DNA of 64,000 bases from Mobula hypostoma. Taxonomy: Eukaryota. The stretch spans positions 15,376,001-15,440,000 of the forward strand of contig NC_086097.1 of NCBI RefSeq assembly GCF_963921235.1, given 5' to 3'. Position 1 is the first letter of the stretch; each line of letters starts with the position of its first letter. A program made the translations under genes and the position numbers. Below the pieces are notes generated by a model, which saw nothing but the letters and a program-made list of their open reading frames with translations, did no database searches and had not been told where the DNA came from. This document shows, one piece after another, positions 17,271 through 62,223 of the stretch.

Positions 17271-17355
17271 CTCAGCTTTGCTCCGCTAAATCTGCCTTTG
17301 GAATGCTCGTAATGAAGGCTCATATAAGCGCGAAAACAGGCCAATCGGCCCATCA

Positions 17356-18830
<1,475 letters not shown>

Positions 18831-22606: not shown

Positions 22607-23944
22607 GTGCATGGTAGGTCATGTTTGACCAATCTATTTGTGCGTGGTAGGTCATGTTTGACCAATCTATTGTGCGTGGTAGGTCATGTTTGACCAATCT
22701 ATTGGAGTTTTTCGAGGAGGTTACCAGGAAAGTGGACGAAAAGCAGGCAGTGGCTATTGTCTACCTGGATTTCAGTAAGGACTTTGACAAGGTCCCGCAT
22801 GGGAGGTTAGTTAGGAAAATTCAGTCGCTAGGTATACATGGAGAGGTGGTAAATTGGATTAGACATTGGCTCAATGGAAGAAGCCAAAGAGTGGTGGTAG
22901 AGAATTGCTTCTCTGAGTGGAGGCCTGTGACTAGTGGTGTGCCACAGGGATCAGTGCTGGGTCCATTGTTATTTGTCATCTGTATCAATGATCTGGATGA
23001 TAATGTGGTAAATTGGATTAGCAAATTTGCTGATGATACAAAGATTGGAGGTGTAGTAGACAGTGAGGAAGGTTTTCAGAGCCTGCAGAGGGACTTGGAC
23101 CAGCTGGAAAAATGGGCTGAAAAATGGCAGATGGAGTTTAATACAGACAAGTGTGAGGTATTGCATGTTGGAAGGACAAACCAAGGTAGAACATACAGGG
23201 TTAATGGTAAGGCACTGAGGAGTGCAGTGGAACAGAGGGATCTGGGAATACAGATACAAAATTCCCTAAAAGTGGCATCACAGGTAGGTAGGGTTGTAAA
23301 GAGAGCTTTTGGTACATTGGCCTTTATTAATCAAAGTATTGAGTATAAGATCTGGAATGTTATGATGAGGTTGTATAAGGCATTGATGAGGCCGAATCTG
23401 GAGTATTGTGTTCAGTTTTGGTCACCAAATTACAGGAAGGATATAAATAAGGTTGAAAGAGTGCAGAGAAGGTTTACAAGGATGTTGCCAGGACTTGAGA
23501 AACTCAGTTACAGAGAAAGATTGAATAGGTTAGGACTTTATTCCCTGGAGCATAGAAGAATGAGGGGAGATTTGATAGAGGTATATAAAATTATGATGGG
23601 TATAGATAGAGTGAATGCAAGCAGGCTTTTTCCACTGAGGCAAGGGGAGAAAAAAAACAGAGGACATGGGTTAAGGGTGAGGGGGGAAAAGTTTAAAGGG
23701 AACATTAGTGGGGGCTTCCTCACACAGAGAGTGGTGGGAATATGGAATGAGCTGCCAGGTGAGGTGGTAAATGCGGGTTCTTTTTTAACATTTAAGAATA
23801 AATTGGACAGATACATGGATGGGAGGTGTATGGAGGGATATGGTCCATGTGCAGGTTAGTGGGACTAGGCAGAAAATAGTTTGGCACAGCCAAGAAGAGC
23901 CAAAAGGCCTGTTTCTGTGCTGCAGTTTCTATGGTTTCTATGGT
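22607..23944 (+). mobile_element. CR1 LINE, 5'-truncated young copy with an open RT C-terminal ORF (22654-23859)
   Basis: GRSCLTNLLEFFEEVT, YLDFSKDFDKVPH, GVPQGSVLGPLLF, KFADDTK; tail (tttctatgg)2; AACCT duplication at 22602-22606 and 23945-23949; inserted in a Rex-type 3' UTR. Confidence 0.95.
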
Positions 23945-32179: not shown

Positions 32180-33674
32180 ATTGTGAAGTAGCTTTATACT
32201 GGTTGGCTCAACATTGTACTTCACTGTTTGGATGGGCGGTGTATGGAGGGTTATGGTCCCGGCAAGGTTCAATGGGACTAGGCATTGGGACGCCAGTGTA
32301 GCATAGCAGTTAGCATGAAGCTATTACTGCTCAGAGTGTTAGTATTCGGAGTTCAATTCAGGAGCCGTCTGTAAGGAGATTGTACATCCCTCCCATAAGC
32401 GCATGGTTTTTCTTCCTCCGCACATCACATAAACCAGCTTTCCCCGTGGTCTCTGTCTGCACTTCTTGCTGCCTCAGCAAAGTAACCAATAAGCAAAGAC
32501 CCTACCAACCCAGAACCCAGAACTCTCCTCAAAAACCTGAAAGCATGTACTTTCTCCGGGCTCAAAAACAGATTCCAGCCACTGTTATCGGACTCTTGAA
32601 TGGACATTTTGTTCAATGTCCTCACAACCTACCTCGTTGTGATCTAATGCTTTACTGTTTGCCTGCACTTACACTTCATTGTTATTGCTTTACCTTGTTC
32701 TACCTCAGTGCACTGTGTAATTATTTTTGGCTTGAAGTATATGTGACAATAATGAAACAATACAAATGCTATCTTCTTCAGCCCTTTGCCTCTCCCAATA
32801 TCTCACATCATTCCCACTACCCTACCCCCCCAAATCTGGATTTAACTATCACCCACCAGCTCATGTAACTCTCTCTCTCCTCTCCATTTATTACGGCTTC
32901 TGCTCTCCTTCTTTTCAGTCCTGTTAAAGGTCTCAGTCTGAAACATCAACTGTTCATTTTCCTCCAGAGATATTGCGTGACCCGCTGAGTTCCTCCAGTG
33001 ATTCGTGTGCGTCGCTCCAGATTTCCGGCATCTTGTGTCGGCCTTCTCAGGAAATCATGGAGGTAAATAATGTGCTGAAGGAGCTTATTAATTCTTTGCA
33101 TCCAACCACACCCAGGTAGAAATCCCCAGACTTGTATGGTTCTGCGAGTATGAGACATCCTGCGAGACAGATGTCAGCATTTCAGTCCATTACTCACCTA
33201 CACATCGAGTGCAGGGGAGGAGTTGGGTTGGGCTGGCACTTTTCAGCAATACATTGGGTAATCTGCTTCTCTGGCGCAAGTCATGAAATTTTTATTAACT
33301 GTATGGCAGCAGTGCAATGAAATACATGATAAATAAATACAGAGAAAAAACTGAATTACAGCAAGTATATAAATGTCTATTAAATGGTTAAGTCAAAATA
33401 AGCAGGGCAAAAAAAGACAAATTTTAAAAAGTAGTGAGGTAGTGTTTATGGGTTCAATGTCCATTTAGAAATCAGATGGCAGAGGAGAAAAAACATGAAA
33501 TATATTCAAAAAATTAAAACTAAATCCATTTTGGACAGAATCCAACTTTCAACCTGAACTTTGGCTTTATCAAAGGCTGCCAGGGAGGATGGCCCATCAC
33601 TGAACCCTGGCTATATCTCACCAGATATCTCCCGGGTTGCATATAGAGGTGTCAGCACTGATGTTGACTTATGT

Positions 33675-34624
33675 AAACACCTCCAACGGGATCCCACCAC
33701 TAAGCACATCTTTCCCTCCGCCCCTCTCTCTGCATTCCGCAGGGATCGCTCCCTACGCGACTCCCTTGTCCATTCGTACCCCCCACCCCTCCCCACTGAT
33801 CTCCCTCCTGGCACTTATCCTTGTAAGCGGAACAAGTGCTACACATGCCCTTACACTTCCTCCCTTACCACCATTCAGGGCCCCAGACAGTCCTTCCAGG
33901 TGAGGTGACACTTCACCTGTGAGTCAGCTGGTGTGATATACTGCGTCCGGTGCTCCCGATGTGGCCTTTTATATATTGGCGAGACCCGACGCAGACTGGG
34001 AGATCGTTTCGCTGAACACCTACGCTCTGTCCGCCAGAGAAAGCAGGATCTCCCAGTGGTCACACATTTTAATTCCACATCCCATTCCCATTCTGATATG
34101 TCTATCCATGGCCTCCTCTACTGTAAAGATGAAGCCACACTCAGGTTGGAGGAACAACAGCTTATATTCCGTCTGGGTAGCCTCCAACCTGATGGCATGA
34201 ACATCGACTTCTCTAACTTCCGTTAATGCCCCACCTCCCCCTCGTACCCCATCCGTTATTTATTTATATACACACATTCTTTCTCTCTCTCTCTCCTTTT
34301 TCTCCCTCTGTCCCTCTGACTATACCCCTTGCCCATCCTCTGGGTTTTCCCCCCCCTCCCCCTTTTCCTTCTCCCTGGGCCTCCTGTCCCATGATCCTCT
34401 CATATCTCTTTTGTCAATCAATTGTCCAGCTCTTGGCTCCATCCCTCCCCCTCCTGTCTTCTCCTATCATTTTGGATCTCCCCCTCCCCCTCCCACTTTC
34501 AAATCTCTTACTAACTCTTCCTTCAGTTAGTCCTGACGAAGGGTCTCGGCCCGAAACGTCGACTGTACCTCTTCCTAGAGATGCTGCCTGGCCTGCTGCA
34601 TTCACCAGCAACTTTGATGTGTGT
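33675..34624 (+). mobile_element. Penelope-like element, 5'-truncated: linker, GIY-YIG endonuclease, 3' UTR and hammerhead
   Basis: CKRNKCYTC...HFTCESAGVIYCVRCSRCGLLYIGETRRRLGDRFAEH...LRLEEQQLIFRLGSLQPDGMN; one in-frame TGA at 33906-33908; 13-bp TSD tgttgacttatgt at 33662-33674 and 34625-34637. Confidence 0.92.
34529..34564 (+). ncRNA. Minimal type I hammerhead ribozyme in the Penelope pLTR
   Basis: Stem I AGTC/GACT, core CTGACGA, stem II GGG..CCC, GAAA, palindromic ACGT stem III, GTC cleavage triplet ending at 34560. Confidence 0.8.
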
Positions 34625-57658: not shown

Positions 57659-58243
57659 GTGCCTGAAACATAAATGCTGTTCATTTATTCAGAGCTGCAC
57701 TGGACTGCTGATTATCACCAGCATTCTGTGTATGTTTTGCCAGTGTGCTGTTAGGCCTGTTCACTGGGGATTGATTCATGGAGATGCTCCTTTACCTATT
57801 TCTTCCCCCATTCCTTTTCCTTTCTTCCTGCTTTCTCTCTCTTCTATTTTAGTTTTCTCTTCAGTACTGTGCACTTTATTTTTATTGCAGCGTACACTTG
57901 AAATAGGAGAGAGTGAGACGGAAAGTCAAATGACTTGCCTCAATCCCAGCATGACCAGGGGCAGGTCAGGCCGTTTATTGGATTTACATCAGAGCTTACG
58001 GATTCAAGAAAGCAAGAGATTCTTCAGATGCTGGAAATCAGAACAAAATACAAAAAAGGAGGAACTCAGCAGGTCAGGCAGCATCTATGGAGAAGAACAA
58101 ACAGTCAGCATTTCGGGCCGAGACCCTCCCTCCATCAGTCTTAATGAGGGGTCTTGGCCCAAAACGTCAACTGTTCATTCCTTACCCTAGATGCTGCCTG
58201 ACCTGCTGAGTTGCTCCAGCATCTTGTGTGTGTGTTTCACTGA

Positions 58244-58441
58244 GTTCCTAGTGTAGTGGCATCCACACCGGACTTCAAGGCGAGTGGTCCTGGGTTCGAA
58301 TCCGGCCAGCTCCTTGCACACTTTCCATTTGGGTTGGGTTGAGCGTTGAGCTGGCAACTCGGCCTCGCAAAAACACACACACATGCTGAAGAAGTAGCAA
58401 GGTTGCCACCCAATGCGCCACAAAGTGTGGAGAGGAACTAA
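58244..58441 (+). mobile_element. tRNA-derived SINE
   Basis: A box tagtgtagtgg, B box ggttcgaatcc; sister copy split at 26515-27342. Confidence 0.7.
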
Positions 58442-58600
58442 TTAACCACTGAATTCCTCCAGGTTTTGTGTGGATCCAGATTTCCGGAACCTGCGATCTC
58501 TAGTGTCTCCATTTTGTTAGTCAGCTGTCCTGATCACTCAGTTAGTTTATAGAATGTTATCTTGGTTTGAGCATTAGAACATACAGAGCAGGTGTATAAT

Positions 58601-59074
58601 CAGTCAGTCAGTCAGTGGGTGCCGTCCCAAATCCGGGGTTGGTGGCTATGCACCTCCATCTTCTTCGATCTTGCAACAGCACCGAGTACAGCCTCTCCTC
58701 CAGTTTGTTCTCACTGGCCGCCTTAGCACCACCCGCTGCCGCCCCCACCGAACTTGAGCCCAAGGCCGTGTCAGCCTCCAGCCGCGGCCGCTTCTTCGAG
58801 CTCGGCCGTTCCTTAGGCGGAGGCCTTGGGCAGGTCCAGGCCCACGGTGCAGTGCCCAAGTTCATTATATCTCTTCTGACTAAGTGCATAGCATACGATT
58901 CATAGATACGTGGTGAGGCTTTAATCTCTTCCACGGAAGATGGCCGTTGGCTCACAAGGAGCTCATCCACCCTTTGTCAGGTCTTGTATTTTTTTAGTCC
59001 TGCTGGGTGTCCTCACACCCTCCTCACCAGCCCAAGTCACCGACCAGTCGACCACGGCCCCCAGCCGAGCGCCG
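58601..59074 (-). mobile_element. Bipartite RTE-derived retroelement carrying a captured host-gene fragment
   Basis: 11-bp TSD aggtgtataat (58590-58600 and 59075-59085); (ACTG)n 3' tail; RTE-like ORF start (..RRDIMNLGT) and C-terminus (QDRRRWR). Confidence 0.8.
58676..58851 (-). pseudogene. ZFTRAF1: Permuted fragment of ZFTRAF1/CYHR1 exon 1
   Basis: KKRPRLE...[12 protein letters not shown] and, in another frame upstream of it, CTVGLDLPKAS. From memory, the vertebrate protein reads [25 protein letters not shown]. Confidence 0.75.
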
Positions 59075-59974
59075 AGGTGTATAATAGGGGCGTACAATTG
59101 ACATTGTCCTTGCTATTGTTGCCCCCAAGTCCTGATGAAAGATCTCGGCCTGAACCGTCAACTGTTTATCCCTCTCCATGGAGGCTGCCTGGCTTGTGAG
59201 TTGTTCCATTATTTTGTGTGCGTTGCTTGTGGATTCAAGGTCAGCTTTAGGACTTGGTCATTGAATGCAGGCTAAGGTTGCAGTGCAGATTTCACAAAGC
59301 ACTAGGTTGTTGGATTTGATATTTTTGACATGTGATGTTAAATTATGATGTTGTCTACACTGTTGCTACAGTTAAATCTTGTGGTGCTTTGTAGAAAAAG
59401 AGGAAATTATTCTGATTCCTTGCCCAACTTTATTGCCCTCAGAATGATTTAATGCTTATTTACACTCCGGTAACTTGGCTGCAACATAATTCACTGCATT
59501 AAGTGACTTCATTCATTAGATCTACAGCATGCCAATAAAAAGTACAACTGTAATTTATAGAAAATAGATTAGAAAGAGAACAAAAAACTGCTGTGGCTAT
59601 TGACCATATGATGAAACCTTCCAGCAATGGCAAAGCTATTACAGTATCATGTGGGTGATTCAAGTACTAGGAACCATTAAAAGTGCATTTTGTTATGTCT
59701 AAACAATTCATGATAACCCATTGAAGGTAGTCCATTTGCAACTTGCCCACAGCATCTTTACATGTAAAATTAATGTTGCTCTTGCCTGTGAGGCCTACAT
59801 TAAAGTATAACTGTCCATTCAAATCTCCAAAATTGTTTGTGCCCTTTAATATCTTTTACCATCCACAATCTGGGATAATATATAGAAAGTTAGCCCATAA
59901 TTTTAACTAATTAAATGTCTTATTAAACCAAAAGAACTCACAGAAAGAAAAGCTGCATTTTTGCTGTGTAAAGA

Positions 59975-61060: not shown

Positions 61061-62223
61061 TTTAATAATTTTTTAAAAATAGTGAGAAAAGAAACATTTG
61101 AAGCACGAAGTCCTCCAGGTTCCTCTTGTGGTCCAATGCTTGCTCTTCTGAAACAGGATACCCTCTTCTGTCATGACCACATATCATTTCAGCATGGTAT
61201 GTCTGCGTTCACTATTGCCTAACACCATGTCTAGTTAAGTTAGGTTAAGCCAGTCACCCCTGCTGGGGCATAGGTCACCAACGAAAGATCCTTCCCCTCC
61301 CAGGGTTGATATCTTTGGAGCTTCTGTTGGCGTTTCTGTAGCTCTGGGATTTTATGGGATGGGTTTGCTAGCCCCATGCCCAACCTCCTCCTCTGGCAGT
61401 CAGGTTTGGGACTGATAATGCCGGAGTTTCCCACACTCCCACCGACAGACCTCCAAACTGCTATCCCTGATCTCCGACTGCCAGGCACACTGACCCAGCA
61501 TGCAACACTGTATTCAACTAGTACTCTTGAGTCCACTGCTATGTTACTGGAACACTGTCCTTTATGTTAGGGGAGAAGTTTGAGGGCACTACGCTATTGT
61601 AGTGGTTAGCGTGATGCTTTTACAGCTCTGGGCATCGGACTTTGGAGTTCAATTCTGGTGCCATCTGCAAGGAGTCTGTACATCCTTGCTGAGAATGAGT
61701 GGGTTTCCTCTGGGTGCTCCCGTTTCCTCCCACGTTCCAAAGATGTACCAGTTAGTAGGTTAATTAGTCACTGTAATTTCTCCTCTGATTAAGCTAGAAG
61801 TTAAATAGGTGATTTGCTGAGCAGTACGGCCTGTTCCATGCTGTATCTCTAAATAAACATAAAATGAAAGTTATAATATAGCTTTACAAATTTTGGCTTT
61901 GGCCGCATCCTGTATATTGTCTTCACCTCTGGGTACTACATGCTAGATCATTGCAGAAGGGTACAGGGTTAATTTGCTTGGAGGTATTGCACAAAATAGA
62001 TTTGCGTTCCCAAACATTTAAATAGTGAGGAGACAATCTGAGCAAAGATCCCAAAGTCTAAGTGAATCTGACAGCATAGACAGAGGGAAGCTATTTTCAC
62101 TGCTTGGGGAGACAAAGGTAGGAAACAGTCCAAAATCGAAAGCATCTTAGGAGTTTTAGAAAGTACATAGCTTTAGAATTCTCTTCAACAAATGCCAATT
62201 AATGCCAACGACAAACTAATAGA

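What the first reader, a model, noticed from the sequence alone, without database searches (positions are those of the whole stretch)
58601..59074. TSD-flanked bipartite RTE element carrying host coding sequence in a continuous 120-codon chimeric frame
Seen: an 11-bp TSD, a 4-bp repeat tail, an RTE-like 5' part ending just where the endonuclease GTWNV motif would begin (MNLGT), a host-gene insert, and an RTE-like C-terminus (QDRRRWR). An uninterrupted frame (58608-58970, GTG start with internal ATGs) runs through all three parts and keeps the ZFTRAF1 basic KKRPR segment in its native frame. CpGs are retained, which suggests a recent event. Inference: a non-autonomous retroelement able to carry host exon pieces, analogous to Pack-type transposons; if multicopy it would be a gene-fragment-carrying SINE family.
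Basis: partly seen in the sequence, partly recalled or inferred. Interest (0 to 1): 0.7.

Follow-up and report, generated by a model that had tools for sequence, protein, structure and literature searches.

The report
Swapped host exon inside retroposon
A 474-base jumping-gene copy in a cartilaginous-fish genome carries a piece of the host gene ZFTRAF1 with its two halves in swapped order, as if copied once round a loop; it is probably one copy of a repeat family, and its long reading frame is most likely an accident.

Summary
The anatomy is real: minus-strand element 58601-59074, exact 11-bp target-site duplication, (ACTG)4 tail, ZFTRAF1 insert. Sawfish ZFTRAF1 residues 114-124 come before residues 60-112 and in another frame; the unit is 176 bp here against 178 expected. 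The 122-codon frame exists but is not beyond chance (31% of controls), scrambles one block, and meets the QDRRRWR end only because of the 2-base shortfall. RTE origin of the arms rests on recalled motifs; no alignment to an autonomous RTE was obtained. Copy number, empty form, empty site and expression were not tested by reads. The scan found this before on other DNA: eight unchecked notes place the same permuted cargo elsewhere in this genome and estimate 700-1000 copies. Best reading: a young copy of a non-autonomous RTE-type family with one fixed cargo, captured once, probably by template jumps that also removed the LINE interior; a DNA-circle patch is the main rival. It is not shown to be a Pack-like carrier. 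New variant of a known kind.

The parts
58590..58600 (.). Target-site duplication, copy next to the tail (11 bp; its first base in element sense also continues the tail repeat, so 10 or 11 bp)
   Evidence: family D7, 100% identical
58601..58616 (-). 3' tail, four perfect copies of a 4-base unit (ACTG in element sense)
58617..58675 (-). 3' arm, putative LINE 3' end; reads QDRRRWR...TAP then a stop at 58610-58608 inside the tail; begins with one TGCA copy (58672-58675)
   Evidence: RTE assignment from a recalled motif, no alignment obtained
58677..58826 (-). ZFTRAF1 block A, natively the upstream block (sawfish residues 60-112), in native frame within the long open frame
   Evidence: tblastn 74% identity over 53 columns, E 1.5e-14 against the whole window
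58818..58851 (-). ZFTRAF1 block B, natively the downstream block (sawfish residues 114-124), placed first and in a different frame; starts with the second TGCA copy (58848-58851); one invariant Cys codon changed to Gly
   Evidence: 10 of 11 residues identical; next best among about 128,000 six-frame positions of the window is 7 of 11
58818..58826 (-). Overlap at the permutation joint: the end of block B, read in the frame of block A, gives R-P where batoid ZFTRAF1 has R-P; candidate microhomology of up to 9 bases
   Evidence: inference, native DNA not seen
58852..59074 (-). 5' arm, putative LINE leader ending in MNLGT (ATG at 58865); no ribozyme or small-RNA head detected
   Evidence: RTE assignment from a recalled motif
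59075..59085 (.). Target-site duplication, copy at the element's 5' end
   Evidence: family D7
58608..58976 (-). Stop-free frame of 122 codons across arm, insert and arm; judged incidental
   Evidence: no Pfam family; no hit among 1.84 billion representatives

Best explanation
This is a young, near full-length copy of a non-autonomous retroposon family built from the two ends of a LINE (probably RTE clade) with one fixed host cargo between them. Founding event (inferred, once, elsewhere): a LINE reverse transcriptase that had copied about 75 bases of its own 3' end jumped onto ZFTRAF1 sequence at a shared TGCA/GCA, copied block A, passed through a short repeated word onto the downstream block B (by looping back on a linear mRNA, or by running round a small circle), stopped after one round plus four bases, and jumped back onto the LINE at the start of the endonuclease. 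This removed the LINE interior and left a permuted cargo. The product kept the LINE leader and tail, so it could be transcribed and copied in trans by LINE protein (inferred). This locus is a later insertion by target-primed reverse transcription (shown: TSD and tail). The cargo is a passenger, and the long frame is a by-product of GC-rich coding sequence and a 2-base loss.
For: Shown: TSD and tail enclose the whole three-part unit. Shown: B-before-A order with block B starting where block A natively ends; arithmetic gives a 178-base unit against 176 observed. Shown: 5 of 39 residues invariant in five cartilaginous fishes differ in the cargo, among them a RING cysteine that is kept in all 8 full-length ZFTRAF1 proteins seen, lamprey included, while TSD and tail are perfect; this fits capture before this insertion, weakly (chance of 38 unchanged bases is 0.11 at 5.7% and 0.66 at 1.1%). 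Inferred: the cargo sits exactly where the 5' motif stops and the 3' motif starts, a coincidence expected if capture and deletion were one event. Indirect: 8 DNA runs of two organisms (two samples, two studies) hold 0.49-0.67 of the 57 sampled words, in a narrow range within each organism, as shared family words would give. Literature: bipartite RTE derivatives are common (PMC5786205, PMC7245038); double template jumps with TSD are described (PMC2104539, abstract). Leads only: eight notes at other places of this genome.
Against: No alignment of either arm to an autonomous RTE was obtained (51 protein; 30, 71 paper supplements; 31, 65 DNA motif). No second copy in the 64-kb window, and the look-up by sequence among earlier findings returned 0 look-alike windows, which sits oddly with many copies. 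The word shares stay below 0.73, the share that separate parts could supply without any chimera, so they do not prove the joined form. Four of the five cargo changes could be native to this host's gene; one lamprey also has KKRPR. The sequence cannot tell an RNA-level capture from a DNA-circle patch. No promoter or ribozyme that would explain transcription was found.
Confidence: 0.55

Rival explanations
1. Same family history, but the capture was at DNA level: a 178-base microDNA circle excised from the GC-rich ZFTRAF1 coding start by microhomology was opened once and patched into a LINE copy (into a break that deleted its interior, or into an existing empty bipartite element by crossover at TGCA); that copy then became the master.
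For: Exact permutation follows naturally from one opening of a circle; TGCA on both sides; microDNAs are enriched in 5' UTRs, exons and CpG islands and depend on microhomology-mediated joining (PMC9527254, passage); cargo GC 0.67; non-colinear eccDNA insertions are inherited in the human germline (10.64898/2026.09.03.749254, section 7).
Against: In that preprint 80 of 82 insertions lie on the source chromosome and 78 of 80 within 10 Mb, and enrichment was for terminal microhomology of 5 bases or more; here it is 4. Landing exactly at the junction of the two arms would be a coincidence for an existing empty element. The cargo is in mRNA sense relative to the element (1 in 2 by chance).
Confidence: 0.25
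2. One reading: an empty bipartite element of about 298 bp that repeatedly takes up host exon pieces at TGCA, Pack-like, with the chimeric frame expressed.
For: TGCA flanks the cargo on both sides; the frame is open; other notes report other host exons fused to RTE-type LINEs in this genome (OTUD5, galectin, unchecked).
Against: Frame length within chance; block B is out of native frame; the other two registers at the 3' junction also stay open for 9 and 20 codons, so the QDRRRWR register needs the 2-base shortfall; no protein like it in 1.84 billion representatives; all notes seen name one cargo.
Confidence: 0.08
3. One-off event at this locus: the chimera formed during or after this single insertion and has not moved.
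For: No other copy in the window; 0 look-alikes by sequence; high CpG retention.
Against: Notes at four distinct offsets on the same piece (7.6 and 2.1 Mb before, 3.0 and 72.1 Mb beyond) and four on other pieces describe the same permuted cargo (content unchecked); cargo carries a change at an invariant cysteine while TSD and tail are perfect.
Confidence: 0.06
4. The arms come from another LINE clade or from a SINE, not from RTE; the cargo story is unchanged.
For: No RTE alignment was obtained; no run of T about ten bases upstream of the TSD, a signature of many RTE-related SINEs (PMC6007223, abstract and passages).
Against: Short-repeat tail, 10-11-bp TSD whose first base continues the tail repeat, and both terminal peptide motifs in sense orientation fit RTE (motifs recalled); the same paper's figure legend notes that the animal RTE LINEs examined have TSDs starting with A, as here.
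Confidence: 0.06

Closest known systems
Bipartite non-autonomous RTE derivatives (Bov-A, RTE-N2_Lch, RTESINE2, hagfish RTE-derived SINE tails; PMC5786205, parts 1-2 of 5 read; PMC7245038, passages)
   Same: Short element made of a LINE 5' part and 3' end, short-repeat tail, TSD of 6-19 bp, no coding capacity.
   Different: Here a host coding fragment lies between the arms; in the parts read, added sequence in such families is a 5' head (tRNA, 5S, 7SL, 28S, snoRNA, GC-rich) or a SINE body, not an internal mRNA piece.
circRNA-derived pseudogenes (Dong et al. 2016, PMC4897178, part 1 of 2 read)
   Same: Non-colinear order of host exon sequence, no poly(A), many copies from one circle (33 high-confidence circRFWD2 copies), association with retroelements; the paper also allows reverse transcription across a folded linear RNA.
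   Different: Those joints are exon-exon back-splices of several exons and are flanked by LTRs; here a 178-base unit ends one base into a codon, and sits inside a LINE-derived element.
eccDNA-mediated germline insertions (Zhang et al. 2026 preprint, 10.64898/2026.09.03.749254; abstract and section 7 read)
   Same: Non-colinear insert, short homology at the ends, inherited.
   Different: Those are single, non-repetitive insertions mostly near the source; here the insert is inside a retroposon that has probably multiplied.
SVA_F1 (MAST2 exon 1) and the chimpanzee STK40-SVA subfamily (PMC6139936, abstract read)
   Same: A host first-exon piece became a fixed part of an amplifying non-autonomous retroposon.
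   Different: There the exon is spliced colinearly onto the 5' end; here it is internal and permuted.
Tripartite LINE template-switch chimeras (Gogvadze et al. 2007, PMC2104539, abstract read)
   Same: Three fused templates within one TSD, attributed to double template jumps.
   Different: Described as individual insertions with colinear parts; not LINE-host-LINE with a permuted middle.

Membership tests
Bipartite non-autonomous RTE element | 5' part aligns to the 5' region of an autonomous RTE | tested here: inconclusive
   No RTE sequence could be retrieved: protein searches blank for this arm, motifs absent from two papers' supplements and from metagenome and viral contigs. None of these collections is a eukaryote repeat library. 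MNLGT resemblance is recalled.
Bipartite non-autonomous RTE element | 3' part aligns to the 3' end of the same RTE | tested here: inconclusive
   Same searches; the arm alone was too short for the locus search. QDRRRWR resemblance is recalled.
Bipartite non-autonomous RTE element | Short-repeat 3' tail and TSD | tested here: met
   (ACTG)4 and 11-bp TSD; hagfish RTE TSDs are 6-19 bp.
Bipartite non-autonomous RTE element | Interior of the LINE absent, no enzyme encoded | tested here: met
   474 bp; no Pfam family in the long frame.
Bipartite non-autonomous RTE element | Consists of the two LINE parts only | tested here: not met
   176-base ZFTRAF1 insert between the arms.
Bipartite non-autonomous RTE element | Many copies of uniform structure with different TSDs | not testable with these tools
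   No genome held and no read-level result; unchecked notes say 700-1000 copies.
SINE in the strict sense | Head derived from tRNA, 5S or 7SL RNA | tested here: not met
   Rfam scan of 58200-59400 at E up to 5 gave 2 weak unrelated matches, none such; the copy may be 5'-truncated.
circRNA-derived pseudogene | Non-colinear order of host sequence | tested here: met
circRNA-derived pseudogene | Joint at an exon-exon back-splice | not testable with these tools
   Native gene DNA and exon limits were not available; the unit starts at about residue 60 and ends one base into the codon after residue 124 of the sawfish protein.
eccDNA/microDNA-mediated insertion | Exact single-cut permutation of a contiguous source interval | tested here: met
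   Met to within 2 bases at protein resolution: 176 observed, 178 expected.
eccDNA/microDNA-mediated insertion | Direct repeat at the two ends of the source interval | tested here: inconclusive
   R-P coincidence over 9 bases; native DNA not seen.
Pack-type transposon (Pack-MULE, Pack-TIR) | Terminal inverted repeats | tested here: not met
   No inverted pair at the element's ends among 12 pairs listed; ends are tail and TSD.
Pack-type transposon (Pack-MULE, Pack-TIR) | Different cargo in different copies | not testable with these tools
   Only this copy was seen; notes name one cargo.
SVA_F1-type exon-trapping subfamily | Host exon spliced colinearly onto the element's 5' end | tested here: not met
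   Cargo is internal and permuted.
Ribozyme-headed RTE (twister or HDV-like) | 5' end at a ribozyme cleavage site | tested here: not met
   No Rfam match, 0 hits of an HDV-like descriptor of my own, untested on a known ribozyme, fold z-score -0.26.

The most novel reading that the evidence does not exclude
A nucleosome-sized circle (microDNA or a non-spliced circular RNA) from a host gene's first coding region was captured in the germline as the middle body of a retroposon and then amplified to about a thousand copies shared by related ray or shark species. This would be a datable fossil of small-circle reintegration and a new route to SINE bodies, and it would scatter a CpG-rich ZFTRAF1 piece across the genome.
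Probability: 0.3. Interest if true: 0.7.

Novelty: new variant of a known kind. Interest (0 to 1): 0.45.

Why it matters
The origin of the middle bodies of short retroposons is an open question (PMC5786205). A family whose body is a recognisable, permuted host exon shows one way such a body can arise, and hundreds of copies would let the founding junctions be read to the base and dated across species, which could separate template jumping from circle integration. In practice the copies can mislead gene annotation, circRNA calls and ZFTRAF1 read mapping.

Tried and rejected
No whole genome is held, so no genome-wide count. No read-level result was obtained, which leaves depth, empty form, empty site, native junction and expression open. 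In one search no RNA holder was listed; 12 of 24 rows had shares of 0.07-0.25 and 4 had 0.00, none laid, so none is used. Protein searches for an RTE partner: only ZFTRAF1; 0 hits; 3 candidates, none at E up to 10. Locus searches with the arms failed on length. One 22-base motif of the 5' arm: 0 matches in metagenome contigs and viral contigs. Three short motifs: 0 in the supplements of PMC5786205 and PMC7245038. Ribozyme or special fold in the arms: none. Look-ups of earlier findings by sequence and in relatives: 0. No ZFTRAF1 protein of the window's own lineage was found, so native codons are unknown. Literature searches for this family or for an amplified retroposon with a permuted host exon (listings only) showed none; none of the 15 listed of 2,019 papers mentions CYHR1 or ZFTRAF1. 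The library lacks most subscription journals and Repbase/Dfam were not searchable, so a prior description is not excluded; supplements of the bioRxiv preprint were not seen. Rejected: the plus-strand reading (frame has stops); a functional chimeric protein; Pack-type and strict SINE membership (see tests).

Full report
Setting. The window looks like a cartilaginous-fish genome: the cargo's closest proteins are from sawfish and skates, and a CCDC85 exon lies on the minus strand at 17353-18180 (Pfam PF10226, E 1.9e-92), about 40 kb from the element. No whole genome is held.

Observation. The element lies on the minus strand. An exact 11-base repeat (58590-58600, 59075-59085) brackets 474 bases; one copy touches a tail of four 4-base units. 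GC and CpG rise inside and fall outside. Repeats of 11 bases at this spacing occur 22 times in the window, so the evidence is the coincidence with tail and composition step. The first TSD base continues the tail repeat, in line with the link between tail and TSD start reported for RTE-related elements (PMC6007223, abstract and passages); the T-run ten bases upstream described there is absent. The frame 58608-58976 is open for 122 codons and contains MNLGT and QDRRRWR.

The cargo. A search with the frame gave 4 hits among 1149 candidates, all ZFTRAF1/CYHR1. tblastn with the sawfish protein places residues 60-112 at 58826-58677 and residues 114-124 upstream of them, at 58851-58819, in another frame. 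The second block matches 10 of 11 residues; the next best position among about 128,000 in the window's six frames matches 7. So a native A-B stretch appears as B-A, with TGCA at both ends 176 bases apart. I saw this and noted it, before reading any earlier finding. Every full-length ZFTRAF1 retrieved has two cysteines at the opening point; counting them gives a unit of 178, so this copy is 2 bases short. At the B-A joint, the last bases of B read R-P in A's frame, where batoids have R-P, which suggests a repeated word of up to 9 bases at the ends of the unit; without native DNA this is inference.

The frame. Controls with the element's dinucleotide make-up reach 122 codons in 31% of 3000 trials; keeping the real block A, 17.5% of 3000. 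Block B is read out of its native frame. The three registers at the 3' junction stay open for 22, 9 and 20 codons; the one with QDRRRWR is reached because of the 2-base shortfall. There is no Pfam family and no similar protein among 1.84 billion representatives. I treat the frame as incidental.

The arms. Their RTE origin rests on two recalled motifs (endonuclease start, ORF end), their sense orientation, the tail and the TSD. No small-RNA head, ribozyme or unusual fold was found, so how the element is transcribed is unknown; an internal LINE leader or read-through is the default guess.

One-off or family. No second copy lies in the window. Five of 39 residues invariant in five cartilaginous fishes differ in the cargo, one a RING cysteine, while TSD and tail are intact; this hints that capture preceded this insertion, but weakly, and four of the five may be native to the host. 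Eight DNA runs from two organisms hold 0.49-0.67 of 57 sampled words (6 of 24 rows at half or more). The narrow range per organism suits shared family words and would mean 1-2% difference from the nearest copies; yet separate parts alone could supply 0.73, so the joined form is not proven there, and one sample may be the window's source. No read-level result was obtained. Earlier notes of this scan describe the same permuted cargo at four other offsets on this piece and in four notes on other pieces (some of these may be the same locus), mostly as 178 bases, with estimates of 700-1000 copies (8 of 12 and 8 of 20 fitting notes shown). I could not check them. They moved my odds for a family from 40% to about 90%. 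Against this, the look-up by sequence found 0 look-alike windows, unexplained.

Mechanism. Shown: the last step was target-primed insertion of the whole unit. Inferred: the cargo sits exactly where the 5' motif ends (one shared base) and the 3' motif begins, which is unlikely for a later insertion into an existing empty element of about 298 bases and natural if capture and loss of the LINE interior were one event. An empty form therefore need not exist. The cargo covers one round plus four bases and is in mRNA sense. Template jumps by the LINE enzyme, with a loop-back on linear mRNA or a run round a small circle, explain all three junctions in one reaction; Dong et al. allow such copying across a folded linear RNA (PMC4897178, part 1 of 2), and double jumps are described (PMC2104539, abstract). 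Unchecked notes report other mRNA-RTE fusions in this genome. A microDNA patch fits the size, GC content and exact permutation equally well (PMC9527254, passage; preprint section 7). The sequence of one copy cannot separate these; I give 0.55 and 0.25.

Comparison and novelty. It works like a bipartite RTE derivative (PMC5786205, parts 1-2 of 5; PMC7245038, passages) but has an internal host cargo, so I do not file it as a plain member. It shares amplified host exon sequence with SVA_F1-type subfamilies (PMC6139936, abstract) and non-colinear order with circRNA pseudogenes and eccDNA insertions. Each ingredient is known; the combination, a permuted exon piece as the fixed body of a LINE-derived family, did not appear in my searches (listings only; limited library). 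The leads to Dong et al., SVA_F1 and the preprint came from the earlier notes.

Verdict. Observation partly confirmed, interpretation partly supported. New variant of a known kind, already noted several times by this scan in the same genome. Interest 0.45; 0.7 if a true small-circle origin is shown (probability 0.3).

Noticed in passing
window 61240-61480, minus strand (approximate): A second short element unrelated to this one by blastn, with RTE-like leader and 3' end by eye (recalled) and a stretch resembling a twister ribozyme core. Rfam found no match at E up to 1. Earlier notes describe twister-headed RTE mini-elements in this genome (unchecked).
   Followed up: partly
window 17353-18180, minus strand: CCDC85-family first coding exon (Pfam PF10226, E 1.9e-92); the element lies about 40 kb upstream in the same orientation.
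   Followed up: partly
window 58058-58217: Two 69-base repeat copies in inverted orientation, 81% complementary, 22 bases apart; a third copy at 59128-59196. Probably fragments of an abundant SINE/LINE tail.
   Followed up: no
window 58255-58420 (approximate): A repeat with a tRNA-like box by eye, just left of the element; Rfam gave no tRNA match.
   Followed up: no
window 22651-23859, plus strand: 402-codon open frame with reverse-transcriptase motifs, CR1-like by recall; an unusually intact LINE fragment.
   Followed up: no
window 33558-34226, plus strand: Two adjacent frames resembling a GIY-YIG (Penelope-like) endonuclease end, by recall.
   Followed up: no
protein P0009 (Narcine bancroftii ZFTRAF1): The database model starts after the region captured here, so the GC-rich start of this gene may be missing from some ray annotations.
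   Followed up: no
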